Shown piece after piece: positions 1-53,620 of a stretch of DNA of 56,348 nucleotides; position 1 is the stretch's first letter, and every line of letters begins with the position of its first letter. Under the pieces are notes generated by a model. That model saw only the letters and a list, made by a program, of their open reading frames with translations, did no database searches and was not told where the DNA came from. The DNA comes from a virus. Taxonomy: Duplodnaviria; Caudoviricetes. A program made the position numbers and the translations under genes. Location of the stretch: positions 1 through 56,348 of the IMG/VR virus record IMGVR_UViG_3300025151_000042. One strand, 5' to 3'.

Positions 1-14
1 AGGCTGATTTGTAT

Positions 15-1145: not shown

Positions 1146-1146
1146 A

Positions 1147-15600: not shown

Positions 15601-16726
15601 TAACACAATATTCCCTCTAGGTATGAGAGAATACAGCGAAATGGGTGGATTTAAGACTACTAGAGCAGAATGGTATGCACCTAAGATTCTAATAACAAAA
15701 GACTTGTCTTACACCCCCGCTACTTATGTAACAATGACTGATGCAGGATTAGGTATGGCTACGGCAGAAACTATGGTTATACAAAGAGTTGAGTGGTCTA
15801 TTAGTGCGGGAAGAACAGAAGATGTAAAATTAACATTAGAAAGAAATGAATCAATTGGCGCTCAAGGTATTATTGCTAGATTATACGCACAGAATAATGA
15901 TGATTTACAAGTAGGGCAAGATTTAGGACAACAATCGGGAACAGGAAGTGTATTAGACGGTAATAACGAAGATGTAACAATACCCAATAATCCTAGCAAC
16001 GAAGCATTAGACGATGACACTCAAAAGAAACAAAATGGTACGGAAGATGGTAATGCAGAAGCGACGGATAGTTTTTCTAGGGGTAAAAGAAGTCCTGCAT
16101 TAAGTAGGGGTAGTAGAATGAGTCTACAAAACGATTTCTTATCTGCTAATAGTAAGTTTTCTATATTAGGCCAAGAGAGAATACCAATTACACCTTCTAA
16201 CATGAGAAGTATAGAAGGTATGGATGTTGAAATAACCCCTATATCGGGTAGTGCTGTTGTAACATCAGAAGGATATATTTTTGCTAGTAAGGGATTACAA
16301 GATACTGATGATTCTTCTATAACTAATCAAGAAGTATCTATTGAAACGTCATTCGTAGTACCTAGTGATATAATGAATAATATCTTATCTATACAAGCGT
16401 CATTAAGCAACGGTGGTATCTATAATGATAATAGCGTTGTGGTGTTATACATAACAGCAACTTGTTTAGAGACAAACACTAGTGTTGAACACACAGTAAG
16501 GGTGGGTGGTGGTATAGAAAAGAAAACTATATCTCTAATGCCTACTACTATATTAAATGGTTTAGATACTGTTGGTAATAATATTAAGATAACAATAACT
16601 AGAAAACCAAATGTAGGTAATGATAAATCCACATCATCATTAGTACTACATAATTTAGAAGTAAATATGAGACGAGCCGCAGCCAATACCAAATCTAACT
16701 CTAGTCAATTTTCTACTATCACTTAA
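9605..16726 (+). CDS. giant tail tip/hub and receptor-binding protein (2373 aa)
   Basis: Follows the tape measure gene; Thr/Ser/Gly/Asn-rich beta structure; hub-like segments (VWRGTV...FSANDGLRFL; FEFRP...VTNVRVYY). Confidence 0.7.
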   Translation: MVRSVTKKYQIWLAGFYDDFNGARAIPDYLQLPSDTSYSVTLSHFGNPMNGEASLNPRYRWSIVERELKTNHDDTLLGTNDVNRYLRNNGVFEWLSRDSKRNSYDEWEGRVQLQYPDGHVANRYRFGGSTSEGDVGYQRFVNGHNTAASYIVPVGANDATFGRADMKRFDATNYAAENAGFISTTGDFVQRAHLTGSWMGEKITQTTSEYNTVDGDNNHTTSPSKVFAEVTSPAKKPFLCVQTVRKTHDSSSIIPAIIYDGHLNSRLERDTFTARIALRSFIAKGSTDWTKVGIQFEIGFAATQAGLLNDTGYTGTPEIDYILKLNDTNEPQYDTLGLLYDGSTAQSYTNDNTWLDIDFVMKYATGKYDVYLNGTRIETDLALASGTSVTPANLYGFQITTNTRQGLAANQGYVSYLMLDRVGMVRCLTDDITTTDEVQIKSLRNNRGVNSVSTCNVVITDDADRTNGNTGLLATDYVENLKDLFVTDSPLDWELLVFSDTNSRIDRPVWRGTVNSFKINQNKRTREIQFSANDGLRFLDNQVPLWEIGQEGLNDNLGKTPYWLYDAQGFKEIMNLGATKLKLTGSDVGFERDSSYLETSTQRMQSNSGLPIQMYNNENPIYGPNDIENYYEGVGIIGFQKDTSGNTLVYMNDDSHTITTSSTVSILGTKHNATNISPTAVSVDKLTLTFASGDLPFSAETAKIIYIGKYEPPTELDHTNWQISNTLTDVYRNSTYFPAWYKHLTPKSGPWYMNVFFDADPSLEVGDYFYINQEAMDNSTALNSAYTGRLKVKSVRKIQSIYTNYFTQPEKGGTYGAYITSPTYIWAVQTFTPYPSSLTEHGVYTPETTLDGALSSGASSITLTDASNFGTSGTGIIIIPTYFNNIPTNLDTWGTVDVDYDVFTWTGKSSNTLTGVSGVGVSHLDNAVVFQHFPKPADDLLVNNERFQWSKDTSATVIGTFTDTTEPIKHRVIQARWMRDLPLSLWFKYQFGIVKKDPVNNTITGTANQYGLIHQGADQTLNSSTTSIRVTQTTYDSAPVSGVAELWKAPTTPLITASDNVYQEKFIYTGKQTTGGIYYLTGVKYITGSYTTSDASSSPPYYYLKFQDHKDDYKHIWLLWADMRNNGQANADGELRKESFGLQYPLRDNYELQMYFADQFDENGNVDKFGSLNIGEDIHIWNMDATNDPITNGPFSKPADYSSGVVVTSLADASGKLKILTSDTGTVAVGDYIHLTGSLNHDGMHRVATGGLSSNTHFITETTYVSTTLNAGGGKYYTTTGSDKDLSVYQDWEDKGGSFLVIDASPFFNLNTNANGSKTGQTSGGRTDLTDYVQEREGFPALIDNYWAEALPSYQTTGDITLEHPAQYRLLSDASLASDNLQNGYKGLPIDDPSKFDDSGVGKIIERLENTDTADPEYLFLWHSKLDTKYTSTGGSQIQTAIDGGANTQVQYGVGNTFVSSGLKEGMLINNIRSGTVTPQYIIEVVSDLILKVSGVWQGGDTFEVPPQLGKVYIAPSDDITVTAADDLTSLEQQVRDSFAATAQTWDDYGLTGLSIEEGKEIEVHSTVHSAFMLRLLMHLKGNIKNKNSGTFWESDKFRTLWNAAIMDTWLPPTTVRNIYDINNIPITSKMSTYNSTTSSDSYGSVVDSRGSTFLSTIKKIHNNSGIGTENNLNTTFSYLVGKDNRFEFRPKYNSNISFTRNNITMNNMAANISSQVTNVRVYYNNGQSFVDYPATNLTDTTRWKILQFPKVTQSFEATVLAKKEYDNYKKSPLKINVSPILDGNYKMIETGRHGYIADSYVALEGTDDDYTKVCNWTRLGTGGALFNGMVNALDGNMKTSTNLYARYGVSKDATTSGDISWNDNYYWYGSGSVSNAVQIVHIPNNTPLVSDNHSHPMRIWVDLKSGQSGTDIDNAEFTIHVADYSFSGETRTATSQSAASVNVKHSGFYELALPSTYSDTSVGNMVVSFNAEYCRALLRHRCGDPTDANILAQVATNTNTIFPLGMREYSEMGGFKTTRAEWYAPKILITKDLSYTPATYVTMTDAGLGMATAETMVIQRVEWSISAGRTEDVKLTLERNESIGAQGIIARLYAQNNDDLQVGQDLGQQSGTGSVLDGNNEDVTIPNNPSNEALDDDTQKKQNGTEDGNAEATDSFSRGKRSPALSRGSRMSLQNDFLSANSKFSILGQERIPITPSNMRSIEGMDVEITPISGSAVVTSEGYIFASKGLQDTDDSSITNQEVSIETSFVVPSDIMNNILSIQASLSNGGIYNDNSVVVLYITATCLETNTSVEHTVRVGGGIEKKTISLMPTTILNGLDTVGNNIKITITRKPNVGNDKSTSSLVLHNLEVNMRRAAANTKSNSSQFSTIT

Positions 16727-17426
16727 GTGGTACATCGTCTAGATTATTTCTAAGGGCTAGTATATCTTGCGCTCTTTGTCTGCCTACACCTTTGACAGCC
16801 ATAACTGCTTTTTGTGTAGTCCTAAGTCTTAGTAGTTTAGGTATGCTACCAAACTCTTCTAACAAATCCTTAGCCATAGTAGGTGTTACTCCTTTTACAG
16901 AAGATAAGATTTGGATTCTTGGGTCTAAATCGCTCTTTTTTATGGCTTTTTGTGTATCAGAATCGTGTCTAGAAAAAGCCATTCCTAGTTGGGTATGATT
17001 TACTACTAACCATTCAATAAACTCTTCCATTGTAGCCAGTTCCATATACTTAATTTTAGGGAATCTTTGATGAAATGTCATCTTGAATTGCGTATTTACT
17101 TTTTTCATTCTAGCCATTTCCATAGCAGTTTGTTTTGCTGTCGGCCTACCCCCATGAACATAGGGTTTTAATTTTGTACCGTACACTACTAAGACTGGGT
17201 TTTCGTAGTTGTCTTGTAAATCTCTTAACTGAGATACGATAGTTCTATTCCTACCAATACCAAGAATAGAACGGTATAAATCATTAATCTCTTTGGCTTC
17301 AACGCCCCAATCTCCCATAGCATAATCAGCACTCACCATTCTACATACTTTTACGTTATTTTCACCCATACGCATTAACAACTTATTAACTACTTTAGGG
17401 TTTTCTCTATCATCTACTAGTAACAT
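16719..17426 (-). CDS. ERCC4/XPF-family nuclease with C-terminal HhH2
   Basis: VDDRE, ADY and VEAKEINDL catalytic motifs; two HhH motifs (VKGVTPTMA, VKGVGRQRA). Confidence 0.85.
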   Translation of the reverse strand: MLLVDDRENPKVVNKLLMRMGENNVKVCRMVSADYAMGDWGVEAKEINDLYRSILGIGRNRTIVSQLRDLQDNYENPVLVVYGTKLKPYVHGGRPTAKQTAMEMARMKKVNTQFKMTFHQRFPKIKYMELATMEEFIEWLVVNHTQLGMAFSRHDSDTQKAIKKSDLDPRIQILSSVKGVTPTMAKDLLEEFGSIPKLLRLRTTQKAVMAVKGVGRQRAQDILALRNNLDDVPLK

Positions 17427-17427
17427 C

Positions 17428-17586
17428 TTACCATCCTAATGTATGGTAGACTTCTCCCTCTAATATAATGATATGTGAATTACAACTTCTGCAATACTTT
17501 TCTCTTTCTGTTTTTAGTGTCCAATCGTGCTTACATAAGTTGCAGCATTCCATTTCTTTTTCCGTTAAATTAATTAAGTTCATCAT
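17428..17586 (-). CDS. small Zn-finger protein (52 aa), not in ORF track
   Basis: CNLC...CRSC; gap-filling and co-oriented. Confidence 0.6.
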   Translation of the reverse strand: MMNLINLTEKEMECCNLCKHDWTLKTEREKYCRSCNSHIIILEGEVYHTLGW

Positions 17587-17588
17587 TT

Positions 17589-18596
17589 TTATTCTCTCCT
17601 TGTACCGTCATCTCTCCAACAAGAACCTTTACATCCTACGTTAGTAGATAGCCAAGAACAAGACGGTGGTTGTTCGTGGTCTATGATAGAAAATAATTGC
17701 ATCCTAGACATACTAGGTTTGAAGTCTCTCCACTTTAGTTTTTCGATAAAAGCAACTGCTTCGTCTACTATCTTTCTTTTGTCAGTCATAGACAAAGTTT
17801 TTGGGTCAGCAAAGAGTCTAAGATTTTCTACTAAATGATACCCTAAAGCCAACCTAACAGGGTGTTTAGGGTTTTCGTGAGTCATAGCAGAAGCGATACA
17901 TGGTGGTACGGGTATTTGACCGGAAGAAGTGATTTCTCCGTGAAATACATTAGTGTTTAGTTCTTTAGGTATTGGGTTGTTAGCAATCCATTTTACTATA
18001 TCAAAATCACTATCTACAACTTTACCTCTAAATGGGTCATGTATATTGTAATCTTTGTTGGGTGTAGTAGGAATATCATAATTTAGTGGGTCTTTTACAA
18101 AATCTTCGGTAGGTATATTGACTGCCCATCTACCTCTCTTCGTGTTGTAGGTGTTTGGTATTCTAGTAAGTTTTTGTGGGTGTCCTACACCATCTAATGT
18201 AGGTAAATCCTTAGCCACACTTCTTTCGTACCTATCTATGTGTTTAGCGATACTAGTACCGATTACAGGCCGCTTAAACATTTGGTGTACATGAAAACCC
18301 CTACCTGTAAATACAGTTCTTATATCACCGTCTAGTCGAGATATGAGCGTAGCAACGTCATTCTTTACATCATCCATAGAGCCACCTTCTTCAATGTCAA
18401 AATCCCACCATGCTCTATCCATAATAACACTCTCTACATCGTATTTCCAAGGTCTTGTCGGGTCTTTTCTTTGGAACGCATAGAGGGAAGTGTAACAGGA
18501 TGCTTTTCCGTTTACCTTATCTATGTATTCATCAAAACTTTTACGGGAAAAACATTGTGAACGGCGAAGCCCAATCTCTCTAGGGAATAATAACAT
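17589..18596 (-). CDS. archaeo-eukaryotic primase, PriS catalytic domain fused to PriL-type Fe-S C-terminal domain
   Basis: WDFD, TGRGFHV and RIPNTYN catalytic motifs; C-terminal PPCI...HPVRLAL...PPSC...C...C. Confidence 0.85.
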   Translation of the reverse strand: MLLFPREIGLRRSQCFSRKSFDEYIDKVNGKASCYTSLYAFQRKDPTRPWKYDVESVIMDRAWWDFDIEEGGSMDDVKNDVATLISRLDGDIRTVFTGRGFHVHQMFKRPVIGTSIAKHIDRYERSVAKDLPTLDGVGHPQKLTRIPNTYNTKRGRWAVNIPTEDFVKDPLNYDIPTTPNKDYNIHDPFRGKVVDSDFDIVKWIANNPIPKELNTNVFHGEITSSGQIPVPPCIASAMTHENPKHPVRLALGYHLVENLRLFADPKTLSMTDKRKIVDEAVAFIEKLKWRDFKPSMSRMQLFSIIDHEQPPSCSWLSTNVGCKGSCWRDDGTRRE

Positions 18597-18599
18597 ATA

Positions 18600-18761
18600 T
18601 CATTCCACCGCAAAAGTATAAGTTGCGCCACACGAACAGGCTAATAACGTCATCAATTCCGGTTTGTGTCCTTCTTGTCCAGTTATTCTCCAAACTTCTT
18701 CTTCGCCTTCCCAAGCATCCATTTCTCCACAAGATTGACATATTATTTCCGGTTTATTCAT
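18600..18761 (-). CDS. small Zn-ribbon protein (53 aa), not in ORF track
   Basis: CQSCG...CSCG; overlaps the stop of the upstream gene. Confidence 0.6.
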   Translation of the reverse strand: MNKPEIICQSCGEMDAWEGEEEVWRITGQEGHKPELMTLLACSCGATYTFAVE

Positions 18762-19605
18762 CTGTATTCCACTCCTTAATGCCGTTCAATTCTGCCTCAC
18801 AATCTAGTGAAAAATCACACCACATTGGGCAGAAATAATCATTCCAATTCATAGGCCATTGTTGGGAAGTAAGAGACTCAATAGTGTCATATAATGATTC
18901 CTCAAATATTTTATACGACCTTTCTCTAAATGGCTCTAAAAGAGCGAAACCTTTCTCCGCACCAATCCACATAGTTTTACCTCTCTTATTACCTTCCAAT
19001 AATAATTTATCTTCTACGTCATATTCGTAATCGGGACTAATGTATAAGAAGTGAGAGACTTCATCATAATCTAATTTTCTAAGTAATCTTGTATAGTAAA
19101 CTAATTCTTTACGGGTTCTACTTAATTTAGACATAGACATATTACCCGTCTTTAATTCTACTAAAATCAACTGTTTTGTATCGGGATGTCTAAGCACTCC
19201 ATCTATCAAACCAACCCATACAACGGGCTGTCCGTTTAACTCTTCATAAACTTGATGCTTTACTTCTGCCTCTACAACCTCAAAGCCGCCCATATCATAG
19301 GCTATTTGATGCAATAGAAGGTTTAATGAATCAACTCCGTCATCGTCTGCTACGCCTTCTTCTGCTGCCGCTTCCATCAGCACGTCAGCACCGTCTAATA
19401 AACCTCTCTCCATAACATTATGTATGGCGACACCACGAATCATTTCTTCTGTACGCGGTGGGGTAGGTATATCAGCAACATAGCGCCAATAATATTGTCT
19501 AGGACACATATTGTAAGTCATAAAGGATGACTTACTTACTCTTAAGGAAGAATTATTACTTGGTATATATGATGATTCTTTTATTTGTTCTTCACTCGCT
19601 TTCAT
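18754..19605 (-). CDS. Cas4/AddB-like PD-(D/E)XK exonuclease with Fe-S cysteines
   Basis: CPRQY, G..IH, GLIDG, VELKTG and C-terminal CPMWCDFSLDC; start taken at MKASEE. Confidence 0.85.
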   Translation of the reverse strand: MKASEEQIKESSYIPSNNSSLRVSKSSFMTYNMCPRQYYWRYVADIPTPPRTEEMIRGVAIHNVMERGLLDGADVLMEAAAEEGVADDDGVDSLNLLLHQIAYDMGGFEVVEAEVKHQVYEELNGQPVVWVGLIDGVLRHPDTKQLILVELKTGNMSMSKLSRTRKELVYYTRLLRKLDYDEVSHFLYISPDYEYDVEDKLLLEGNKRGKTMWIGAEKGFALLEPFRERSYKIFEESLYDTIESLTSQQWPMNWNDYFCPMWCDFSLDCEAELNGIKEWNTDE

Positions 19606-19879
19606 CGGAAACAACTCCGTTATCCCAATCCTCAAAAGAAGTTTGGCTCTTACCGAACAAATCCGAACCACACATAGGACACATATCTTCTACTGGTATA
19701 TTAGGTAATAATGGCCTCATAATTTCTTCGCCACAAGAATGACAAGAAACTCTATCCATTTTATCTATATCAATCAACAAGTTATACATCATACTTTGTA
19801 ATTTTACTATATCTATACTCATATGTTGTATTATATTGACAGTCTCTCGCATAAACATCTGCACATCATCATCTTTCAT
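19592..19879 (-). CDS. Zn-finger protein with PIP-box-like C-terminal motif
   Basis: CHSC...CPMC and QTSFEDW. Confidence 0.6.
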   Translation of the reverse strand: MKDDDVQMFMRETVNIIQHMSIDIVKLQSMMYNLLIDIDKMDRVSCHSCGEEIMRPLLPNIPVEDMCPMCGSDLFGKSQTSFEDWDNGVVSDESE

Positions 19880-19913
19880 ATTTATCTCACCTTATTACTA
19901 CTATTATAAAGTT

Positions 19914-22151
19914 TTATACCCAACCCATGTTTGCCAAACCATTTCTAGCATTTTCTATCGGTTGCGTACTCCACCCTGCCAAATCAAAGTATGGCTTTAT
20001 TTTTTTTATGACAAATCTATCTACCATAACCTTACTACCTATGGTTTCTATTCCCTCTACATCCTTTGGATTGTCAAATGCTATATACTTACCATTTTCA
20101 TTTAAGGTAACTAAAAAGAATGAGCCTTTTCTATATCCTTTTCCTAGATACTCGTTAGCCCATGCCGCACCTGCTGATGAGCCGGACAGTACTTTATACT
20201 GGCTTATATCTCTCTCTAATTTACCCTTCATACATAGGTCTATTGGGTCTGTTTCTCCCTTGATTACTGAATCTACCATAGCAGACAGTCTATCGGTTAC
20301 AGCAGACTCTTGTTCATTAGTTAATATTCCGGTAATAGTATCTAACATAGCCGCCTTCATAACAGGTGGCATTCTACTTTGTTTCATCTCAATACCTTTA
20401 ACGTAAATATTCGGTTCGTGATACTCACCATCAGTCCAAGTAACCATACCTGTGTATCTATTCTTAGCCACCATTATTATGCGAGAACACCACTTCTCAA
20501 ACTCAGTAACAATAGGTTTCATTCTTTCATTAATTAACTCTAATTTTTGTAGACCCTCTTCCGGTGTAGGTATGACGCAGAATACAGAATCAGTATGTCC
20601 ATAAATAACGTCAAACCCTACCCTTTTAGCCTCATCCATAAGTTGTCCTAGAGTCTGCCTAGACGTGTATGTAATAGCAGCCGCTATTTCGGGGTGATAC
20701 ATACCAAACTTAGCATCTCCCGCTACACCATACATAGAAGCAACAAGAGTCTTGGCTGCAAACTGCATACAATCCCACTTCTTTTTCTCATCACCTTCGG
20801 TCATAATCATCTTCATCTTAAACTCACTCCTAAAGCCAGTCATCAATTCCATTTGTCTTACTAGTAATCCTTGTTCTCCCTGTGTGAACTTAGAGCCATT
20901 ACCACAATCTACACCGTTCTCATCTAGCGTGTCCCAACTGATGTTATATTTAGCAGCATTGGAATGATACATGGCTCTTATATCTAAGATACCTACGTTA
21001 TCATATACACCTGCCTCTACCTTTAGAATCTCAGCACCCTCATAATCTACTTTAGCGAATTGAGGTTGCGAAGGTATTTTTCTATCAAACTGTTTATCTC
21101 TTAAAACTAAGTTAGTAAACATCTTAGTGATAAAGGGCGTACTTTTTATCTCACATTGTACGATATGTTGTAGGGCTGTATAGTAATCCAATGCGTTTAC
21201 TGCATCGTCTAACTTAGGTAGTAACCTAACGTCTTGTCTACAATAATGTATGTACAAATCCCTATCTTCATACCAAGATTCGTCGTGTCCTTTTTCTAAC
21301 TCAACTTTCTTTTCCCCTAATATTTCTTCCGCTACGTCGTTTAGTTTGTAAGAAGGTAGTTTTCCATTCTTCATCTCCCATAGTTTAGAAACAGCAAGCA
21401 TCAAGTCTATACAGTTTCTACCCACTATTGGCTGTTCCCAGTCTCCATACTCATACCTTAATCTCCTAAGAGGGGAGAGAGCATAAGAAGGTAGACCACA
21501 GGCTCTAGTACGCTCGACTATCTGCTTTATGTCAGCACCTACTACATACCACCCCGTAATAATATCGGGGTCGCAGTTCTTTAGTATTCTCATAAAATGT
21601 ATAAGCATGGAACGCTCACTAGGGAATCCCATAGCGGGTGTTTCGTACTTGTATTCTCCCAACTCAGAATACGGTACTCCTTCACCATCTTTCAAGTCTC
21701 TATCAGAAAGTGTCTTTTCGACAAACCATACATATTCTTTTCCGGTAAAATTATCATAGGCTACAATTACTCTCATGTGTCCTGTCGTTGGCGACCATTC
21801 ACAATCAAGATACCATGTTCTATGTTTATAGTTAGGTATAGGTTCGTTACCATCGTTAATATAATCACACAGCACTTTATTTGTGTAGGGTATGTTTGCC
21901 TCCCATGTAGAACCTACATAAGACATTTGCCTTACATCGTGTGGTGTAGCACAGTATACTTTAGTCAGAGACTCGCCATACAATCCAGTATAACCTGCCT
22001 CAGTTCTTACTGCCTCTGCAACATATGGTACGTTAGCATCTTCTATGTAACAGTAAGGCCAGTAACCACTAATAGTTTTCTCGTATCTTTTACCATTACT
22101 ATCTCTAGCCCTTATGAGAACATTTCTACCATTGGTTTTTTCTACAATCAT
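19914..22151 (-). CDS. polB: family B DNA polymerase with divergent active-site motifs
   Basis: ExoI LDCEW, ExoIII YCRQD, region II DIRAMYHS, region III KTLVASMYG, region I YGHTDS, KNRY and KGIE. Confidence 0.95.
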   Translation of the reverse strand: MIVEKTNGRNVLIRARDSNGKRYEKTISGYWPYCYIEDANVPYVAEAVRTEAGYTGLYGESLTKVYCATPHDVRQMSYVGSTWEANIPYTNKVLCDYINDGNEPIPNYKHRTWYLDCEWSPTTGHMRVIVAYDNFTGKEYVWFVEKTLSDRDLKDGEGVPYSELGEYKYETPAMGFPSERSMLIHFMRILKNCDPDIITGWYVVGADIKQIVERTRACGLPSYALSPLRRLRYEYGDWEQPIVGRNCIDLMLAVSKLWEMKNGKLPSYKLNDVAEEILGEKKVELEKGHDESWYEDRDLYIHYCRQDVRLLPKLDDAVNALDYYTALQHIVQCEIKSTPFITKMFTNLVLRDKQFDRKIPSQPQFAKVDYEGAEILKVEAGVYDNVGILDIRAMYHSNAAKYNISWDTLDENGVDCGNGSKFTQGEQGLLVRQMELMTGFRSEFKMKMIMTEGDEKKKWDCMQFAAKTLVASMYGVAGDAKFGMYHPEIAAAITYTSRQTLGQLMDEAKRVGFDVIYGHTDSVFCVIPTPEEGLQKLELINERMKPIVTEFEKWCSRIIMVAKNRYTGMVTWTDGEYHEPNIYVKGIEMKQSRMPPVMKAAMLDTITGILTNEQESAVTDRLSAMVDSVIKGETDPIDLCMKGKLERDISQYKVLSGSSAGAAWANEYLGKGYRKGSFFLVTLNENGKYIAFDNPKDVEGIETIGSKVMVDRFVIKKIKPYFDLAGWSTQPIENARNGLANMGWV

Positions 22152-22294
22152 TCCACATCATGCCTAAACATTTTAAGGTCATTACAATGCTCGCATTCAT
22201 ATATTTCAGCATTTTCTATATGTTCTACAAAAACCCAAGAGAAAGTAGCCCCGCATCTTTCGCAGTTAGGCCAACGCTGTGTGTAATTAACCAT
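22148..22294 (-). CDS. small Zn-ribbon protein
   Basis: CERC...CEHC; start at MVNY after the upstream stop. Confidence 0.6.
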   Translation of the reverse strand: MVNYTQRWPNCERCGATFSWVFVEHIENAEIYECEHCNDLKMFRHDVE

Positions 22295-22295
22295 A

Positions 22296-22556
22296 TCAAT
22301 CCAACCTTCTAGCCCCTCTACTACGGGTATCAATGTTATGGCGACGTAGCCAGTTATTGATGCACATTGGTGTTACTCCACATTCAATAGCAATAGTTTG
22401 CATATTCTTATTGTGTTTTACATACTGTGCGTGTAGCCACTCATAATCTCTATACAGAGGTTGTGAGTCAGTAGGTATGATAGTAATAGTAACCTCGTAC
22501 CCGTCAATCATTCTTTTGTTTTTCCCTAATTCTAATCCTGTCATTTCTATGTCCAT
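22296..22556 (-). CDS. helix-turn-helix protein
   Basis: WLHAQY...MQTIAIECGVTPMCINNWLRRHNI HTH pattern. Confidence 0.7.
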   Translation of the reverse strand: MDIEMTGLELGKNKRMIDGYEVTITIIPTDSQPLYRDYEWLHAQYVKHNKNMQTIAIECGVTPMCINNWLRRHNIDTRSRGARRLD

Positions 22557-22560
22557 TCAA

Positions 22561-23367
22561 TCACCCCAAGTTACCTGCTTGGAAAATAAAGTCGCCATCA
22601 CCCAATGTAATTAGCATTCTAATACCCTGTCCTTCGGGTACAAAGTTAAAAAAGTGTATATCAGCCGTTCCTGTCAACTCTTTGAAAACATACTCTAAGC
22701 CGCCATTGTAGTCGGCTTCAAATATATCTTGTGGTTTTGGGTCAATCTGTGAGATAGTTTTACCTTTAAGTTGTTTTCCAACCTCTACACATAAACCATT
22801 TTCGTCAGAAATTATTCTGTATTTGTTATATCTTTGATTATTCATATTGTCGCATCTAAACGCTTCGTATAAGGTAGTGGTATCAATACCCTCCCAAGAT
22901 GCAAACGGCTTTCTTTTAGCACCACTATTGAGCATATATGTTGTATCAGTCAAGTCTATCTTCGTAGCCAACCTAACAGATTTCGCTTCCCACTCTGCTA
23001 CATTAGAAGATGTGTGAGGAAATGCTAGAGCCTTATCAGAAGAAGTCATAGTAGTTTGTTTGTTAGATGATTTTAAGATAATTTTATCTTCTCCAATATC
23101 CAACCTAATAACACCACCATGATATTTCAACGCACCTAAGAATGCCTCTATATCAGATATAGCAAAGTCTCCTTCACCGGAACAAGGTATAGACAACAAA
23201 GTCAATGAAGTAAGGCCATCTTTGACAAGAGAGCAAGCAGTAAGTCTACCACTTGCTGCTCTCATCATTAAAGAATGAACCTGTGGTGTTACTTTTCCCG
23301 AAACATTTTGTTTTCTTTGGGACAAGGTAAGTAACCACGTTAAAGACGTGCCATCAACGGTAATCAT
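22561..23367 (-). CDS. PCNA-like DNA sliding clamp
   Basis: 268 aa with a two-fold alpha/beta clamp pattern; lies between PolB and RFC; low sequence conservation. Confidence 0.6.
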   Translation of the reverse strand: MITVDGTSLTWLLTLSQRKQNVSGKVTPQVHSLMMRAASGRLTACSLVKDGLTSLTLLSIPCSGEGDFAISDIEAFLGALKYHGGVIRLDIGEDKIILKSSNKQTTMTSSDKALAFPHTSSNVAEWEAKSVRLATKIDLTDTTYMLNSGAKRKPFASWEGIDTTTLYEAFRCDNMNNQRYNKYRIISDENGLCVEVGKQLKGKTISQIDPKPQDIFEADYNGGLEYVFKELTGTADIHFFNFVPEGQGIRMLITLGDGDFIFQAGNLG

Positions 23368-23371
23368 ATAA

Positions 23372-24316
23372 TCACTCCATAAACGGTAGACCTAACCACT
23401 CTACGTTACCATTGGAAACTTTTAGAATGTCGTGCTTTGTACCCACCATTTCTATGTTGTTACCTTTCATTTCTTCTATGGTAGCACGTACAACCCATTC
23501 ACCTTCGTTGAGTGTTCTATCACCCTCAACACCGGAAGCAGGGTCAGCCTTCTTCATGTATCGGTTTAGGAAAACTTGTTGTGAGAACTTACGCATAGTA
23601 CCCTTTTCCCATTCCGGTCTAAAACCAACAGTCATTAGTACCTTTTTACCTGTACCGTCATCCATATATTGTTGTACTGCCTTGAGATGGAAAGTAAAGT
23701 AAACTTTAGCCACGTTAAGACTGTGTAATCTAGTCAGAACATTTCTGTAAAGCCTGTTTCTCTCTCGCCATTCTTTTTGGTTAAAAGTACCATCTTCTGT
23801 TTCAATGACACCACGACTTAGTAATGATGCTCTCATAGCGTGTTCACACCATTTCAAGAATGTAGAACCACCATCAAAGATGACACCACCTACTGAGTCG
23901 GGGTCATTCTTAACTTTCTCAGCAAGTATATTAACATACCAAGATGTCTTGTCAAGTAGAGCCTTGTAATCTACGTTGTTATCCGCATCAAAGATAGAAT
24001 CGTCAGTCTCGTCATGTAATGGTAACACAACTATATTAGTTGCGTTAGGAAATACATGGTCTACGGTAGACTTTGCAGAGTTATCTATGTCAAAAATATA
24101 GATTGTTTTACCTGCTGCTATTTCTTTAGTTAGGCAAGAGAGAGCCAAACCTGTTTTAGCCGTGTTTTCATGACCTACAAAGGCCGCACGATGTGTTATG
24201 GCCTGTATAGTATTGTTCTCAAACAGATTCTTGTAATAAGATTCATCGAATCTATTTACAGGTTCAGCAGTCTTTGGTGTAGTCGTAGGTTTTGCTTGTG
24301 TTCCCCATGCGCTCAT
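23372..24316 (-). CDS. RecA-superfamily ATPase (Sak4/RadB-like)
   Basis: Walker A variant GHENTAKT, IFDID, Walker B VIFDG and FTFH strand. Confidence 0.7.
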   Translation of the reverse strand: MSAWGTQAKPTTTPKTAEPVNRFDESYYKNLFENNTIQAITHRAAFVGHENTAKTGLALSCLTKEIAAGKTIYIFDIDNSAKSTVDHVFPNATNIVVLPLHDETDDSIFDADNNVDYKALLDKTSWYVNILAEKVKNDPDSVGGVIFDGGSTFLKWCEHAMRASLLSRGVIETEDGTFNQKEWRERNRLYRNVLTRLHSLNVAKVYFTFHLKAVQQYMDDGTGKKVLMTVGFRPEWEKGTMRKFSQQVFLNRYMKKADPASGVEGDRTLNEGEWVVRATIEEMKGNNIEMVGTKHDILKVSNGNVEWLGLPFME

Positions 24317-24330
24317 ATATATTCCTCTGA

Positions 24331-24348
24331 TGTATTAGGGTTATAAAC
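24331..24348 (-). promoter_or_regulatory. promoter GTTTATAACCCTAATACA (identical copy at 28279-28296)
   Basis: 18-bp exact repeat, each starting 32 nt upstream of an ATG (24316 and 28264). Confidence 0.75.
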
Positions 24349-25885
24349 TTTCAGTTAATATCGCTGCATCAGTCATAAGAAGTAATGCTGCCACGCTAAC
24401 CGCAGATTCTAAACTGTTAATTGTAACCTGTACAGGGTCAATAACTCCATCATTAAATGCGTTTCTAACCTCAGTAGTTTTACCACAAATATATTGTTTG
24501 TACGTATGTATAGGTATCTCGCCCGTATTATTACCTGCATTCTGTATTATTGCAGTTATAGGTGCTAATAATCCAAGATTAAATAACTTCTTAATATGGT
24601 AATCAACATCTTCGGGGTGTTGTGACAATTTCATTCTAGCAAAGTATAGTGCTGAACCACCACCTGCGACCACGCCACTATCCATAGCCAAACGACAGGC
24701 GTTTACTGCATCATCTACACGTTCCTTTCTTTCTAGTTGTTCGACTTCTGATTTACCACCGACATATATTTTAGATATGCCGTTAGTCAATCTTGATATA
24801 CGATTGTTATAGTATTGTTGCATCCAATCATTAGTTGCTTCATCTTCATAACAGGCCAAAGAATCTAAGTGTTCGTTTAATTCATCGGACGGCTCTCCAC
24901 TCGATGTTATAATAGTAGTCAAAGCAGAAGATTGTATTTTCTCACAAGAGCCAACATCAAATGACGTTAGTTTCGTGATAGATTCTCCTAGAGAAGTCTT
25001 AAACAAATTACTCTTAGTAACTAATGCTATATCTTCTAACCATGCTTGTTGTTCTTCCGGCATACCCGAAGGTTTGACTAACAACGCACTTATTTTACCT
25101 TGTGCTATGTTGACTAAAAGATTCTGTAACGCTTGATGATTAAAGTCAGCACAGAATATAGCAATAGGTTTGTTGTCTTTGACTGCTAACTCTAAAGCAG
25201 GTATCAAAGCATTGAATGTCTCTATCCTTTCAGTAGTAACTACAACCATAGGGTTATCTAAGATGCATCTAGCCTTCGGACTGTTAATCATAATGTTGTG
25301 TGCGTAACCCGCTAAAACTTCTAATCCTTGCACATCTTCCGTGTATGTTTCATAAGTAGGACTTTTTTCTATCGTAATAGTACCCTTACTGCCTGTCTTA
25401 TTGATAACTTCTGCTATCATTTTACCTAATTCGGGGTCATTGTTAGCAGCAATAGTAGCCACATCTTCGATAGAAAAGTCATCGGTCTTGATGTCATTAA
25501 GATAATCTATTGTCTCTTCTAAGTAATAACCCAAAGCATCTCTTATAACAATAGGACTAACGCCCTGTTCTATTAAGGAAAGAGAACCATTACACAAAGC
25601 CTGTGCTATCAATGTAGCAGTAGTAGTACCATCACCCGATTTTTCCTGTGCTTCTGATGCGACCTCTTTAAGAAGGTCTATACCCATTTGTACATAGGGG
25701 TCTTTATCATTGATAGCCCTAGCAACAGTAACACCGTCGTTGAGAATGACAGGCATACCCGCAGGGTTTTGTATGATAACTGTTCTAGCATTTACACCTA
25801 GAGTACCTTTGACTGCGTTAGCAACCTTGTTTACACCTTTGAGTAATTTGACCTTAGCATCCATTCCTGTTAATATTGTTTCCAT
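24341..25885 (-). CDS. groEL: group I chaperonin GroEL
   Basis: AVKGTLG, NDGVTVA, GDGTTTAT, ATIAANND, VDDAVNA, GVVAGGG and GVIDP; GroEL-type apical domain. Confidence 0.95.
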   Translation of the reverse strand: METILTGMDAKVKLLKGVNKVANAVKGTLGVNARTVIIQNPAGMPVILNDGVTVARAINDKDPYVQMGIDLLKEVASEAQEKSGDGTTTATLIAQALCNGSLSLIEQGVSPIVIRDALGYYLEETIDYLNDIKTDDFSIEDVATIAANNDPELGKMIAEVINKTGSKGTITIEKSPTYETYTEDVQGLEVLAGYAHNIMINSPKARCILDNPMVVVTTERIETFNALIPALELAVKDNKPIAIFCADFNHQALQNLLVNIAQGKISALLVKPSGMPEEQQAWLEDIALVTKSNLFKTSLGESITKLTSFDVGSCEKIQSSALTTIITSSGEPSDELNEHLDSLACYEDEATNDWMQQYYNNRISRLTNGISKIYVGGKSEVEQLERKERVDDAVNACRLAMDSGVVAGGGSALYFARMKLSQHPEDVDYHIKKLFNLGLLAPITAIIQNAGNNTGEIPIHTYKQYICGKTTEVRNAFNDGVIDPVQVTINSLESAVSVAALLLMTDAAILTESL

Positions 25886-25894
25886 AAAAATACC

Positions 25895-26188
25895 TCACAA
25901 AAAGTCCGGTTCTTCACCGTAGTATTCTTCTCCACCTATATAGTAAGGCACTTCTTCACCATCAAATGCTAATATAGCACTATGGTGTAGACACACTCTA
26001 CCATCATCTAGAGTCATTTCTATACTATCGCCATTGAATAGTACGGTGTCTCCGACCCCTATTGCTAGGGGTACTAGAGAACCAATACTATCTACGACAT
26101 ATTCTTTTGCGGTAATAAGACCTGTGGTACTTATTGTCTCAGCCATCTTTAGGATAACGTATTCTCCTACAGCCTTCATTGTTCCCAC
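25895..26188 (-). CDS. groES: co-chaperonin GroES
   Basis: MKAVGEYVILK...TGLI...VVDSIG...VGDTVLF...ILA; adjacent to groEL. Confidence 0.8.
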   Translation of the reverse strand: MGTMKAVGEYVILKMAETISTTGLITAKEYVVDSIGSLVPLAIGVGDTVLFNGDSIEMTLDDGRVCLHHSAILAFDGEEVPYYIGGEEYYGEEPDFL

Positions 26189-27345
26189 CCATCGTTTTCA
26201 ACGACAGGCTCTACCATTTGAGGAATAGCGTCGAAAGCATACCAACCATTGACTGATAGCCTATCTTCACCTTCTCTACTTCTCCAAGCCCCACCTAGTA
26301 GTAGCATCTTTGTTCCTACTGCAAAGTCAATTTCTTCATCACAATATACATCAACTGTACCTGCCATAGAAGTAATATCTGTATCAGCACATACTAGGAT
26401 GTAACCGCCATTGTCTCTTGGGTCTATGTGTATTACCTCAGTAATAACAGCACAGTTTCTATCCCACCAACCTTCTTGACCGTTGAAGGTATCGTAGTAA
26501 GTACCTAAACCTGCGAGGTTAGGTAGAAGATTTTCATTACCAATCAAATCACCAATAATATCAGTAGGTGAACCACTAAACAGATTAGCCAAAGAAGCAT
26601 CAGTAGTTGGTACTGAGACATCAGCATTTAGGTAACATCTATCATTATTACCACCCTTCATAGGAATAGTTAACGGAGTAAATGTAGGGAACTGCCTATC
26701 AGCAGCAGCACCATTACCACTTACTTTAAGTATTTTTAAGGAATCATTAGTTCCTTGTTTACGGCCATAGAACAATGATGTTCTTTCTCTCTCATCTTGA
26801 GGGCGAGCCGCACCGTATTTGAAGTTAGCATCACCGGATGGGAATGTCGGGTTGTTTTTATCCCACACTACATAGAAATGTGTGTTACCATCTAGTCTCA
26901 TTGTGTGTTTTGGTAGAGAAGATACGTCAGACTCAGTACCAATACCGAACATTTCTGCCGCAAGTCTTGTGTATGTACCGTCATTGTTATCTTCAAAGAC
27001 AACAACTGCCCCACTATCAATCAGTACTTGACGTACATCATCAGTAGCAGTCATAAGTTGATTCTTCATCTTATTGTATAGGATTTTACCCCATTCTTTA
27101 GGGCGTGGTACAGAGATAAACATACCTTCGTAGACATCCGAGCCTGTTCTTTTTAGTCTAGCAGTTTCAGAAGAGATTTGGCGACCTGCGACTCTTAGTG
27201 CAAGTACGGCACAATCTTCATCAGAGCGACCTGCATTTTTCCATGCAGCCCCCTGCTCTACAAGGACTGTATCAGCCCTCTCTTGCACCATCTCCGGTGC
27301 GACGTTCAATGTTTTAGCAATATTTTCAAGCATCTGATTTGACAT
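26176..27345 (-). CDS. OB-fold single-stranded DNA-binding protein (RPA-like)
   Basis: C-terminal OB-fold pattern (LVCADTD...FAVGTKMLLLG...LSVNGW), acidic tail, replication-module context. Confidence 0.55.
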   Translation of the reverse strand: MSNQMLENIAKTLNVAPEMVQERADTVLVEQGAAWKNAGRSDEDCAVLALRVAGRQISSETARLKRTGSDVYEGMFISVPRPKEWGKILYNKMKNQLMTATDDVRQVLIDSGAVVVFEDNNDGTYTRLAAEMFGIGTESDVSSLPKHTMRLDGNTHFYVVWDKNNPTFPSGDANFKYGAARPQDERERTSLFYGRKQGTNDSLKILKVSGNGAAADRQFPTFTPLTIPMKGGNNDRCYLNADVSVPTTDASLANLFSGSPTDIIGDLIGNENLLPNLAGLGTYYDTFNGQEGWWDRNCAVITEVIHIDPRDNGGYILVCADTDITSMAGTVDVYCDEEIDFAVGTKMLLLGGAWRSREGEDRLSVNGWYAFDAIPQMVEPVVENDGWEQ

Positions 27346-27385
27346 CTTTAATACCTCAGTTATTTTATCGTGTCCATTAATACGG

Positions 27386-53565: not shown

Positions 53566-53620
53566 AAACAAGGATAATTTGAAGGGATATATAAGTATTA
53601 GCATAATAATTTCTATTAAG

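What the first reader, a model, noticed from the sequence alone, without database searches (positions are those of the whole stretch)
20586..20984. PolB with substitutions in all three polymerase motifs
Seen: region II DIRAMYHS (20961-20984; consensus DFxSLYPS), region III KTLVASMYG (20727-20753; consensus KxxxNSxYG) and region I YGHTDS (20586-20603; consensus YGDTDS). ExoII also reads GWYVVGAD instead of GxNxxxFD. The two principal catalytic Asp residues, the steric-gate Tyr and the Lys are retained, and the ORF is intact, so it does not look dead. Inference: a remodelled dNTP pocket, implying altered fidelity, lesion bypass or modified-nucleotide use.
Basis: partly seen in the sequence, partly recalled or inferred. 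Interest (0 to 1): 0.7.

Follow-up and report, generated by a model that had tools for sequence, protein, structure and literature searches.

The report
Magrovirus DNA polymerase with rewired active site
The odd motifs are real and fixed across a large group of marine archaeal virus DNA polymerases, and one of them (Asp to His) goes together with loss of a lysine that other enzymes of this family need.

Summary
ORF 19914-22151 (-) encodes a 745-aa family B polymerase reading DIRAMYHS, KTLVASMYG, YGHTDS and GWYVVGAD.

It is neither private nor decaying. All 121 clade members down to 52% identity have YGHTDS and VASMYG, and 120 of 121 have AMYHS. dN/dS is 0.02-0.06, the odd residues persist through synonymous codon turnover, and the metal ligands and exonuclease carboxylates are invariant.

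The contig looks like a group A magrovirus.

The three changes are nested:
- Motif C Asp to His defines a 22-row superclade of magrovirus-like polymerases.
- Motif B Asn to Ala is patchy within that superclade.
- Motif A Pro to His is confined to this clade.

The minor-groove lysine of the KKRY/KxY motif is Asn564. No row with His at motif C keeps that lysine: 0 of 26 in the 166-row tree set, 0 of 34 sister viral loci. By contrast, 137 of 140 Asp rows keep it.

I read this as a compensated swap of an Asp/Lys pair at the primer terminus in an active replicase. Modified-nucleotide use has no support from gene content.

The parts
19914..22151 (-). Family B DNA polymerase gene, 745 aa (P0001), intact
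   Evidence: ORF list and translation. Pfam PF00136 and PF03104. AlphaFold2 model pLDDT 94.2, pTM 0.87. Foldseek TM about 0.8 to KOD, 9N, Tgo and E. coli Pol II.
21795..21812 (-). ExoI YLDCEW (res. 114-119); catalytic D116 and E118 kept; an extra Trp typical of the superclade
   Evidence: D116 and E118 invariant in 99 sequences.
21531..21554 (-). ExoII GWYVVGAD (res. 200-207); catalytic D207 kept; canonical Asn is Tyr202 and canonical Phe is Ala206
   Evidence: Ala206 in 121 of 121. Phe in 106 of 120 outgroup representatives.
21231..21245 (-). ExoIII YCRQD (res. 303-307); Y303 and D307 kept
20961..20984 (-). Motif A DIRAMYHS (res. 390-397); metal ligand D390 and steric-gate Y395 kept; L to M394, P to H396
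   Evidence: H396 in 121 of 121 clade proteins and in none of the 120 outgroup or 10 sister representatives.
20727..20753 (-). Motif B KTLVASMYG (res. 467-475); K467, S472, Y474 and G475 kept; Asn to Ala471
   Evidence: Ala encoded by 4 different codons in 35 sequences.
20661..20663 (-). Ser497 where 111 of 120 outgroup representatives have Gly (KOD G517 of the T..GR segment)
   Evidence: Five different Ser codons in 35 sequences.
20586..20603 (-). Motif C YGHTDS (res. 517-522); metal ligand D521 kept; first Asp replaced by His519
   Evidence: 121 of 121; CAT 32, CAC 3.
20454..20465 (-). KKRY/KxY motif reads KNRY (res. 563-566); K563, R565 and Y566 kept; the minor-groove Lys (KOD K592, RB69 K706) is Asn564
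   Evidence: Alignment to KOD. Asn in 121 of 121 against Lys in 115 of 120 outgroup. Covariation with His519.
20373..20381 (-). Gln591-Ser-Arg593 where canonical PolBs have Arg-x-Asp (KOD R612, D614), in the duplex-binding segment after G586 (KOD G607)
   Evidence: (R,D) in 99 of 134 representatives; (Q,R) only in the 4 representatives of this clade.
16719..28264 (-). Replication module around the polymerase: ERCC4-HhH nuclease, putative archaeo-eukaryotic primase, PD-(D/E)XK nuclease, PolB, two unassigned ORFs (268 and 314 aa), thermosome subunit, 389-aa ORF, RFC-like AAA+ clamp loader
   Evidence: Pfam. The order RFC, 314-aa ORF, PolB, PD-(D/E)XK, primase-like, ERCC4 recurs in sister-clade viral contigs. 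'Primase' is inferred only from tblastn conservation next to PolB in 33 of 34 loci and from the published magrovirus gene set.

Best explanation
This is the active, proofreading replicative polymerase of a magrovirus-like archaeal tailed virus. It belongs to a large natural lineage in which the second shell of the PolB active site has been rewired while the metal-binding core is untouched.

Shown:
- The metal ligands (D390, D521, E550, E552), steric-gate Tyr, motif B Lys and all exonuclease carboxylates are kept.
- The gene is under strong purifying selection.
- The odd residues are fixed clade-wide.

Shown as a pattern:
- The first Asp of motif C (KOD D540, RB69 D621) is His.
- Wherever it is His, the minor-groove-reading Lys of the KKRY motif (KOD K592, RB69 K706) is gone, usually replaced by Asn.

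Inferred:
- In ordinary PolBs this Asp and Lys form a charged pair that holds the primer 3' end and metal A in register.
- Here the pair was replaced, charge for charge (-1/+1 to 0/0), by a His/Asn pair that does the same job. That would explain why the double change is tolerated in nature although each single change cripples model enzymes.

On top of this older change, the window's own clade added several more:
- Pro to His next to the steric gate.
- Asn to Ala in motif B, which loses a contact to the beta-phosphate and 3'-OH of the dNTP.
- Ser497, and Gln591/Arg593 on the duplex-binding surface.
- Loss of two single-strand-DNA ligands in ExoII.

Inferred consequence: altered nucleotide grip and altered partition between synthesis and proofreading, not loss of function.
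For: Identity and intactness.

Clade-wide fixation:
- 121 of 121 have YGHTDS, 121 of 121 have VASMYG, 120 of 121 have AMYHS, and 121 of 121 have Ala206.

Selection:
- dN/dS is 0.023-0.062 for the 7 comparisons with unsaturated dS. Four more distant pairs were saturated.
- In 35 coding sequences the residues persist through codon turnover: His396 CAT 14 / CAC 21; Ala471 four codons; His519 CAT 32 / CAC 3; Asn564 AAT 25 / AAC 9; Ser497 five codons including AGC; Arg593 four codons.

Core kept:
- D116, E118, D207, D307, D390, Y395, K467, G475, T520, D521 and G586 are invariant in 99 sequences.
- E550 and E552 align with KOD E578 and E580.

Covariation:
- 134 representatives: D+K 115; H+N 14; H+R, H+G and H+A 1 each; 0 of 17 His rows keep Lys.
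- 166-row set: D+K 137, H+N 23, H+other 3.
- 34 of 34 sister-clade viral loci have H+N.
- His arose 3 times on the tree, and each time the Lys was lost: P0206/P0272 have H+A, and P0245/P0262 have H+N.

Literature (passages or named sections read):
- In KOD and Tgo ternary complexes, metals A and B are bound by D404 and D542, not D540 (PMC5718519, PMC7763228).
- Saturation mutagenesis of KOD found D540, T541, K591, K592 and G607 'crucial', with almost all substitutions PCR-inactive (PMC5568139, section 14).
- The KKRY Lys hydrogen-bonds the base at primer position n-2. K706A nearly abolishes RB69 activity, and K967A in yeast Pol epsilon is inviable and shifts the enzyme to exonucleolysis (PMC4333401).
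- piPolB lacks the first Asp (SxTTDG), also lacks canonical KxY (KTRG), and is a proficient polymerase (PMC5695915).
- crAss-like and HelPrimPolB groups differ 'profoundly' in both MotifC and KxY (PMC7544198).
Against: - Only 3 independent Asp-to-His events are in my sample. The phylogenetically corrected test (3 of 3 pairs in the same direction) gives p = 0.25 and cannot reach significance.
- The trees are FastTree only, with SH-like support.
- The coupling is not two-way. One lineage keeps Asp but has Cys at the Lys position with a neighbouring His (P0289, P0293, P0323; 'CHY').
- Three His rows have Arg, Gly or Ala instead of Asn, so no single partner residue is required.
- The statement that the Asp and Lys side chains are functionally linked in RB69 is recalled (Xia et al., Biochemistry 2012). 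I could not read it.
- No biochemical data exist for any member of this clade.
Confidence: 0.6

Rival explanations
1. One reading: the substitutions remodel the dNTP pocket so that the polymerase uses modified or non-canonical nucleotides, or bypasses lesions.
For: - H396 follows the steric-gate Tyr.
- A471 replaces the Asn that in KOD contacts the beta-phosphate, can hydrogen-bond the 3'-OH of the dNTP, and stacks on the nascent base pair (PMC5718519, passages).
- From recall only: engineered archaeal PolBs that accept 3'-blocked or sugar-modified nucleotides carry changes at 408-410.
- B2-type PolBs with a single motif C Asp and a conserved His have been linked to translesion synthesis (PMC7544198, passages).
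Against: - No thymidylate-synthase-like, hydroxymethylase, dUTPase, PurZ, DpdA or queuosine-pathway family was found. Pfam covered 55 ORFs, and PHROGs re-scanned 10 of them.
- The only candidate is a truncated 2OG-Fe(II) oxygenase at the contig edge.
- The record is about 84% complete and many ORFs have no family, so absence is weak evidence.
- It is the sole PolB of the record, sits in the replication module, and keeps all proofreading carboxylates. That is not what a specialised bypass enzyme looks like.
- The virus carries its own UV-repair genes: a pyrimidine dimer glycosylase, an ERCC4 nuclease and an Mre11-like exonuclease.
- The motif C His is older than the pocket changes and is shared by clades that keep Pro and Asn.
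Confidence: 0.15
2. Changed metal use: the imidazole of His519 near metal site A shifts the enzyme towards a softer or different divalent cation (Mn, Fe, Co, Zn), or acts as a general base for the primer 3'-OH.
For: [quoted passage not shown]
- A paper I saw only as a reference-list title reports rescue of RB69 active-site mutants by manganese and alternative metal ligands (Zakharova 2004, listed in PMC4333401).
- His is a common ligand for transition metals (general knowledge).
Against:
- The idea does not by itself explain why the KKRY lysine is always lost together with the Asp.
- It is compatible with the best explanation and is not exclusive of it.
Confidence: 0.15
3. Degenerating or non-catalytic polymerase-like protein (like inactivated PolB2 or the C-terminal half of Pol epsilon), or an assembly error.
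For: - Two residues that are almost intolerant to substitution in KOD (D540, K592; PMC5568139) are both replaced.
- The ExoII Asn and Phe are lost.
Against: - dN/dS is 0.02-0.06.
- The same residues occur in 121 of 121 clade proteins from many independent assemblies, and in 34 independent viral contigs of the same clade.
- All metal ligands and exonuclease carboxylates are invariant.
- The predicted fold is full-length and confident.
- No second PolB exists in the record.
Confidence: 0.03

Closest known systems
Archaeal and halovirus-type RNA/DNA-primed family B polymerases (KOD, 9N, Tgo; the 'B5'/B3-like viral group of Kazlauskas et al. 2020)
   Same: - Same domain order and fold: Foldseek TM about 0.8 over the full length; best PDB sequence hits 1e-23 to 1e-25.
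- Same ExoI/II/III carboxylates, same metal ligands, steric-gate Tyr, motif B Lys and YxGA motif.
- Published trees place magrovirus PolBs with halovirus PolBs (PMC5434244, PMC7544198, passages).
   Different: - About 20-25% identity.
- His for the first motif C Asp, Asn for the KKRY Lys, Ala for the motif B Asn, His for the motif A Pro, Ala for the ExoII Phe.
- At least six further clade-fixed replacements of residues conserved in 90% or more of outgroup representatives.
- None of the 3 cultured halovirus PolBs, nor the 1 unclassified marine virus PolB examined with them, has any of these.
Magrovirus (Magrovirales) PolB, especially group A / Apasviridae
   Same: - Gene content matches the published description of group A: thermosome subunit in the replication block, PD-(D/E)XK nuclease, RFC, primase, and a very large ORF of about 6-7 kb in the structural block (against PMC5434244 and PMC11706807, passages).
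- Close PolB relatives lie on marine viral contigs of 45-78 kb.
- Sister clades with the same gene order include split PolB genes, as reported for group B1.
   Different: - No named magrovirus reference sequence was available to me, so the group assignment is by description and not by a tree.
- The papers I read use this PolB as a marker but do not comment on its motifs ('motif' occurs 0 times in PMC5434244).
- Their supplements and figures could not be seen.
Primer-independent PolB (piPolB) of pipolins
   Same: It also lacks the first motif C Asp (SxTTDG), also lacks the canonical KxY motif (KTRG), and is a proficient, proofreading polymerase (PMC5695915, passages). This shows that the first carboxylate is dispensable.
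   Different: - piPolB belongs to the protein-primed branch, with TPR1/TPR2 insertions.
- It has Thr, not His.
- It keeps a Lys in KTRG and primes de novo.
- The present enzyme has the RNA/DNA-primed architecture and a separate primase-like gene next to it.
Archaeal PolB2 / bacterial G2 group
   Same: Only one conserved Asp in motif C, and a conserved His in that motif (PMC7544198, passages).
   Different: In B2/G2, ExoI is not conserved, ExoIII is missing, and the group is linked to translesion synthesis. Here ExoI, ExoII and ExoIII carboxylates are all invariant.

Membership tests
Family B DNA polymerase (Pfam PF00136 / PF03104) | Significant match to the polymerase and exonuclease domain profiles | tested here: met
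   PF00136 scores 93.8 bits (cut-off 23). PF03104 scores 30.7 bits (cut-off 23).
Family B DNA polymerase (Pfam PF00136 / PF03104) | Overall fold: N-terminal, exonuclease, palm, fingers, thumb | tested here: met
   Model pLDDT 94.2. Foldseek TM 0.75-0.82 to KOD, 9N, Tgo, E. coli Pol II and RB69.
Family B DNA polymerase (Pfam PF00136 / PF03104) | Exonuclease carboxylates: ExoI DxE, ExoII D, ExoIII YxxxD | tested here: met
   D116, E118, D207 and D307 are invariant; Y303 is present in 90% or more of rows. The non-catalytic ExoII Asn and Phe are not kept.
Family B DNA polymerase (Pfam PF00136 / PF03104) | Motif A DxxSLYPS with metal-binding Asp and steric-gate Tyr | tested here: met
   D390 and Y395 are invariant. 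Ser, Leu and Pro are replaced by Ala, Met and His.
Family B DNA polymerase (Pfam PF00136 / PF03104) | Motif B KxxxNSxYG | tested here: inconclusive
   K467, S472, Y474 and G475 are kept. The Asn is Ala in 121 of 121.
Family B DNA polymerase (Pfam PF00136 / PF03104) | Motif C YGDTDS with two Asp | tested here: not met
   The second Asp (D521) is invariant. The first is His in 121 of 121. [quoted passage not shown]
Family B DNA polymerase (Pfam PF00136 / PF03104) | KKRY / KxY motif with minor-groove Lys | tested here: not met
   The motif reads KNRY: K563, R565 and Y566 are kept, and the Lys equivalent to KOD K592 is Asn564.
Magrovirus group A (Apasviridae) | Tailed-virus structural module plus near-complete archaeal-type replication module (PolB, clamp loader, primase, nucleases) | tested here: met
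   Terminase, portal, tail tube and tape-measure-like protein. PolB, RFC-like, PD-(D/E)XK, ERCC4 and Mre11-like exonuclease. Sliding clamp, MCM and RadA-like genes were not recognised by Pfam or PHROGs.
Magrovirus group A (Apasviridae) | Thermosome subunit (not GroEL) inside the replication block | tested here: met
   ORF 24341-25885 matches Cpn60_TCP1 at 2.8e-44. Thermosome is stated for groups A and D in PMC5434244 (passage).
Magrovirus group A (Apasviridae) | PolB and capsid protein branch with named group A references | not tested
   No named magrovirus reference sequence was reachable. The phage collection returned haloviruses as best hits.
Archaeal PolB2 / G2 (formerly 'inactivated' PolB) | ExoI not conserved, ExoIII missing, D(K/R) motif | tested here: not met
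   ExoI and ExoIII are intact and invariant. Definition taken from PMC7544198 (passage). The D(K/R) motif was not looked for.
piPolB | TPR1/TPR2 insertions, SxTTDG, KH-X8-KTRG | tested here: not met
   Motif C is YGHTDS and the KxY site is KNRY. The best structural matches are RNA/DNA-primed PolBs.

The most novel reading that the evidence does not exclude
Magrovirus-type polymerases are a natural, abundant second solution to the PolB active site. The near-universal Asp/Lys pair that reads the primer-terminal minor groove and positions metal A is replaced by a His/Asn pair. In group A this is combined with a loosened grip on the dNTP 3'-OH and beta-phosphate (Asn to Ala, Pro to His). If so, these enzymes would have unusual primer-terminus checking, metal dependence or tolerance of sugar- or 3'-modified nucleotides. 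They would then give polymerase engineers a ready-made epistatic route (D540H plus K592N) through two positions that single-site mutagenesis scores as forbidden.
Probability: 0.35. Interest if true: 0.7.

Novelty: new variant of a known kind. Interest (0 to 1): 0.55.

Why it matters
Family B polymerases replicate eukaryotic, archaeal and many viral genomes, and they are the workhorses of PCR and sequencing chemistry. Their motif C 'DTD' and 'KKRY' residues are treated as fixed.

Here, polymerases of viruses reported to be among the most abundant in the surface ocean (PMC5434244) carry His and Asn at two of those positions, under strong selection. The two changes travel together.

- This gives a concrete, testable case of compensated evolution inside a polymerase active site.
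- It warns against calling PolBs 'inactive' from motif C alone.
- It points to specific double mutants worth making in KOD or RB69.
- It supplies a simple sequence signature (GHTDS plus KN[RL]Y) for recognising magrovirus-like polymerases in metagenomes.

Tried and rejected
- Private error or decay: rejected.
- Shared with haloviruses: rejected. HRTV-27, HCTV-5, HRTV-2 and marine virus AG-345-O18 are all canonical.
- One co-inherited 'H/A/H set': rejected. The tree shows three nested steps.
- Measuring the His519-Asn564 distance: not possible, because no coordinate file is exposed.
- Statistical proof of coupling: the independent-pairs test gave 3 of 3 but p = 0.25. Adding 53 relatives of P0206 produced no new independent His origin and revealed one Asp-without-Lys lineage.
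- The same test for motif C His against Ala471, His396, Ala206, Arg593, Gln591 and Ser497 showed no consistent association.
- Literature: 'YGHTDS' found 0 papers. 'HTDS' with 'DNA polymerase' and 'motif C' found 0 papers. 'K706' with 'D621' and 'RB69' found 0 papers. The 'Lys706'/'Asp621' search returned only unrelated papers. Two RB69 structural papers are not held.
- Supplementary figures of Kazlauskas 2020 and Philosof 2017, which may show these motifs as logos or alignments, could not be seen.
- PHROGs on 10 unassigned replication-block ORFs: only the Mre11-like exonuclease matched.
Full report
**1. The observation**

The region lies inside one long minus-strand ORF, 19914..22151, with an ATG start, 745 codons and no internal stop.

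- DIRAMYHS, residues 390-397, 20961-20984.
- KTLVASMYG, residues 467-475, 20727-20753.
- YGHTDS, residues 517-522, 20586-20603.
- GWYVVGAD, residues 200-207, 21531-21554.

Pfam recognises DNA_pol_B (1.4e-26) and the PolB exonuclease domain (2.7e-7).

The best solved relatives by sequence are Pyrobaculum, KOD, Tgo and 9N archaeal PolBs, at about 1e-23 to 1e-25. The printed alignment to KOD fixes the register:
- D390 = D404
- M394 = L408
- Y395 = Y409
- H396 = P410
- K467 = K487
- A471 = N491
- H519 = D540
- D521 = D542
- E550/E552 = E578/E580

**2. Not private, not decaying**

A word-indexed search of 5.8 billion proteins returned 323 relatives at E <= 1e-10. The 120 listed range from 95% down to 52% identity and come from many independent assemblies.

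Aligned with the query (121 rows), the motifs are as follows:
- All 121 read YGHTDS.
- All 121 have K..VASMYG.
- 120 of 121 have xAMYHS; one has QMYHS.
- All 121 have Ala before the ExoII Asp.

Thirty-four viral contigs encode the same clade. In the 35 coding sequences (window plus 34), the unusual residues are kept while their codons turn over:

| Residue | Codons |
|---|---|
| His396 | CAT 14, CAC 21 |
| Ala471 | GCT 13, GCA 14, GCC 5, GCG 3 |
| His519 | CAT 32, CAC 3 |
| Asn564 | AAT 25, AAC 9 |
| Ser497 | five codons |
| Arg593 | four codons |

Nei-Gojobori dN/dS against seven relatives with unsaturated dS is 0.023-0.062. Four more distant pairs were saturated.

In a 99-sequence alignment spanning the clade and its outgroups, D116, E118, D207, D307, D390, Y395, K467, G475, T520, D521 and G586 are invariant.

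An AlphaFold2 model built on that alignment is confident (pLDDT 94.2, pTM 0.87). It superposes on KOD, 9N, Tgo, E. coli Pol II and RB69 polymerases at TM 0.75-0.82 over the whole chain.

The record (56,348 bases, estimated 84% complete) has no second PolB. This is a working replicase.

**3. What the element is**

The window is a whole IMG/VR viral record.

Structural genes found:
- Large terminase, portal, tail tube and a tape-measure-like protein.
- A 2373-aa ORF without Pfam match.

The polymerase sits in a minus-strand block with these genes:
- an ERCC4-HhH nuclease
- a primase-like ORF
- a PD-(D/E)XK nuclease
- a thermosome subunit (Cpn60_TCP1, 2.8e-44)
- an RFC-like AAA+ protein

This matches the published description of magroviruses. 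They are tailed viruses assigned to marine group II archaea with an archaeal-type replication module. Group A carries a thermosome subunit, and the Apasviridae genomes carry a roughly 6-kb jelly-roll ORF and PD-(D/E)XK nuclease (PMC5434244 and PMC11706807, passages).

I could not place it on a tree with named references, so 'group A' is an assignment by description.

**4. The three changes are nested, and haloviruses lack them**

An exhaustive HMMER search of 1.84 billion representatives found 6869 hits. There is a sharp drop after four full-length representatives of the query's clade (44-50% identity, 586-813 bits) to about 30% identity (252 bits and below).

Among the 134 full-length representatives of the 150 listed:

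| Site | Counts |
|---|---|
| Motif C first position | Asp 117, His 17 |
| Motif B Asn position | Asn 113, Ala 14, other 7 |
| Motif A Pro position | Pro 125, His 4 (only the query's clade), other 5 |
| ExoII Phe position | Phe 109, Tyr 17, Ala 8 |

Three cultured halovirus polymerases and one unclassified marine virus polymerase are fully canonical.

A FastTree of 146 rows (762 columns, SH-like support only) shows the following:
- The query's superclade is a single 22-row clade (support 98), and every row in it has His. Three His rows lie outside it.
- Its basal members have only the His, with or without Ala in motif B.
- An inner 19-row clade (support 100) contains two sister groups and the 12-row query clade (support 100).
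- Only the query clade has His in motif A.

Thirty-four viral contigs of the two sister groups gave these counts:
- All 34 have His at motif C.
- 33 of 33 that cover motif A keep Pro.
- 32 of 33 have Ala in motif B.

These contigs share the window's gene order: RFC, a 314-aa ORF, PolB, PD-(D/E)XK, primase-like, ERCC4. Five of them carry the polymerase as two ORFs, and a sixth holds only the C-terminal piece. This recalls the split polymerase reported for magrovirus group B1 (PMC5434244, passage).

The motif C His is thus an old trait of magrovirus-like polymerases. The motif A His is the newest, clade-specific addition.

**5.

I compared the 121 clade members with 120 outgroup representatives, column by column. 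This gives 25 positions where the clade is at least 95% fixed for a residue different from the outgroup majority.

Those where the outgroup is about 90% conserved or more are:

| Change | Location |
|---|---|
| D86N | N-terminal region |
| F206A | ExoII |
| P396H | Motif A |
| N471A | Motif B |
| G497S | KOD G517 |
| D519H | Motif C |
| K564N | KKRY/KxY |
| R591Q, D593R | KOD R612, D614 |

At P642K and D705G the outgroup majority is lower, 99 and 101 of 120.

The most striking is K564N. The KKRY/KxY motif reads KNRY, and by the KOD alignment Asn564 is KOD K592, the second Lys, equivalent to RB69 K706.

The flanking K563, R565 and Y566 are kept. In RB69 these bind the phosphate backbone and the primer 3' end (PMC3564110, passage).

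The missing Lys is the one that hydrogen-bonds the base at primer position n-2 in the minor groove:
- K706A almost abolishes RB69 polymerase activity.
- K498T cripples phi29 polymerase.
- K967A in yeast Pol epsilon is inviable and turns the enzyme into a processive exonuclease (PMC4333401, passages).

In a saturation mutagenesis of KOD, D540, T541, K591, K592 and G607 were the positions where almost every substitution gave a PCR-inactive enzyme (PMC5568139, section 14).

This clade therefore carries non-canonical residues at two of the least tolerant positions known in the family.

**6. The two changes travel together**

Across the 134 representatives the pair (motif C first residue, KKRY second Lys) is:
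- D+K 115
- H+N 14
- H+R, H+G and H+A, 1 each
- D+S 1 (a degenerate sequence)
- D+gap 1 (an intein)

After adding 53 relatives of one outlying His sequence, the 166-row set gives:
- D+K 137
- H+N 23
- H+R, H+G and H+A, 1 each
- D+C 2
- D+E 1

No His row keeps the Lys: 0 of 26 here, and 0 of 34 in the sister viral loci.

On the tree, His arose three times: the magrovirus-like superclade, P0245/P0262, and P0206 with its 98%-identical relative P0272. The Lys was lost each time.

The phylogenetically independent comparison is therefore 3 of 3 in the same direction. With three events the sign test gives only p = 0.25.

There is also a counter-example to a strict two-way rule. One lineage (P0289, P0293, P0323) keeps Asp but has Cys-His-Tyr in place of Lys-Arg-Tyr.

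Published surveys add cases of the same kind, although the passages I read do not state a coupling:
- piPolBs have SxTTDG together with KTRG instead of KxY, and they are proficient polymerases (PMC5695915).
- crAss-like and HelPrimPolB groups differ 'profoundly' in both MotifC and KxY (PMC7544198).

**7. Mechanism proposed**

Shown in solved structures: metals A and B of KOD and Tgo are bound by D404 and D542, and a third metal by E580 and D404. D540 is not listed among the ligands (PMC5718519, PMC7763228, passages). All of these ligands are present here.

Motif C and KKRY together are described as aligning the primer 3'-OH (PMC3564110, passage).

From recall only (Xia et al., Biochemistry 2012; not held): in RB69 the minor-groove contact at n-2 fixes the rotamers of K706 and D621 and thereby the position of metal A.

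My inference is that Asp and Lys form a coupled, oppositely charged pair at the primer terminus. A His/Asn pair replaces it without changing net charge. The polymerase keeps sensing the primer end but with different chemistry.

The later, clade-specific changes affect the nucleotide grip. In KOD, N491 binds the beta-phosphate, can hydrogen-bond the dNTP 3'-OH, and stacks on the nascent pair (PMC5718519). That residue is Ala here. The residue after the steric gate is His.

Gln591/Arg593 and Ser497 lie on the segment that contacts the duplex next to KOD G607 and R606.

In ExoII the Asn and Phe are replaced by Tyr and Ala. From recall of phi29 work, these act as single-strand DNA ligands.

Taken together, I expect an active enzyme with a shifted balance between extension and proofreading and a somewhat looser dNTP pocket. 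None of this has been measured.

**8.

Modified-nucleotide use or lesion bypass remains possible for the two pocket residues, but nothing else supports it.

Pfam scans covered 55 ORFs, and PHROGs re-scanned 10 of them. They found no nucleotide-modifying enzyme family. The only oxygenase is a 5'-truncated 2OG-Fe(II) domain at the contig edge.

The virus encodes its own damage-repair set: a T4 endonuclease V-like pyrimidine dimer glycosylase, an ERCC4 nuclease and an Mre11-like exonuclease.

The record is incomplete and many ORFs are unassigned, so this is weak negative evidence.

**9. Novelty**

The sequences are public, and magrovirus PolB is a standard marker. It is also known that the first motif C Asp is dispensable in some divergent PolBs (PMC7544198, PMC5695915).

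I could not find the following in print:
- The HTDS signature of magrovirus-like polymerases.
- The loss of the KKRY lysine.
- The association of the two.

Searches for 'YGHTDS' and for 'HTDS' with 'DNA polymerase' and 'motif C' gave 0 papers. 'motif' does not occur in the original magrovirus paper. Figures and supplements of the PolB survey, which included magrovirus sequences, were not visible to me and may show the motif logos.

I rate this a new variant of a known kind. It is of moderate interest to polymerase enzymologists and engineers, and it is ordinary as far as the virus's biology is concerned.

Noticed in passing
window 24341-25885 (-): A group II chaperonin (thermosome subunit, Cpn60_TCP1 2.8e-44) is encoded inside the replication block, three genes from the polymerase. 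This is a published hallmark of magrovirus groups A and D.
   Followed up: partly
window 9605-16726 (+): A 2373-aa ORF in the tail/structural block has no Pfam match at E <= 0.01. It probably corresponds to the roughly 6-kb jelly-roll protein described for Apasviridae.
   Followed up: no
L066, L069, L070, L071, L072 (two ORFs) and L073 (C-terminal piece only): Sister-clade viral contigs carry the polymerase split into two ORFs (for example 471+349 aa and 569+311 aa). The break lies between motif B and motif C in the P0178-like group (matches to residues 12-511 and 514-780). This resembles the split DNAP reported for magrovirus group B1.
   Followed up: partly
proteins P0289, P0293, P0323: A PolB lineage keeps the motif C Asp but has Cys-His-Tyr where others have Lys-Arg-Tyr in the KxY motif. 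It is a third arrangement of this site and a counter-example to a strict Asp-Lys rule.
   Followed up: partly
window 38725-39276 (-), 16719-17426 (-), 52129-53604 (-): The virus carries a DNA-damage set of its own: a T4 endonuclease V-like pyrimidine dimer glycosylase (8.6e-9), an ERCC4-HhH nuclease, and an Mre11/SbcD-like exonuclease (PHROG 704, 4e-62). This fits a surface-ocean, UV-exposed life style.
   Followed up: no
window 3-563 (+), open at the contig's 5' end: A 2OG-Fe(II) oxygenase domain (PF13640, 1.4e-16), truncated by the contig edge. It is the only candidate in the record for a modifying enzyme, and its substrate is unknown.
   Followed up: no
window 22561-23367 (-) and 23372-24316 (-): Two ORFs (268 and 314 aa) lie directly upstream of the polymerase without any Pfam or PHROG match. 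By position and size they are candidates for the sliding clamp and the RadA-like ATPase listed for all magroviruses. The 314-aa ORF is conserved next to PolB in 3 sister loci.
   Followed up: partly
window, about 16.7 kb and about 42 kb: Cumulative GC skew peaks near 16 kb and bottoms near 42 kb. This coincides with switches of gene orientation between the plus-strand structural block and the minus-strand replication block.
   Followed up: no
window 40528-41505 (-) and 1132-1533 (+): A DUF932 protein (2.6e-27) and a small protein with a C-terminal SAP DNA-binding domain (2.2e-9). Their functions in this virus are unknown.
   Followed up: no
protein P0010: A 72%-identical polymerase on a 69-kb contig is deposited under a bacterial MAG name (Legionellales). 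This is most likely a viral contig mis-binned into a bacterial genome.
   Followed up: no
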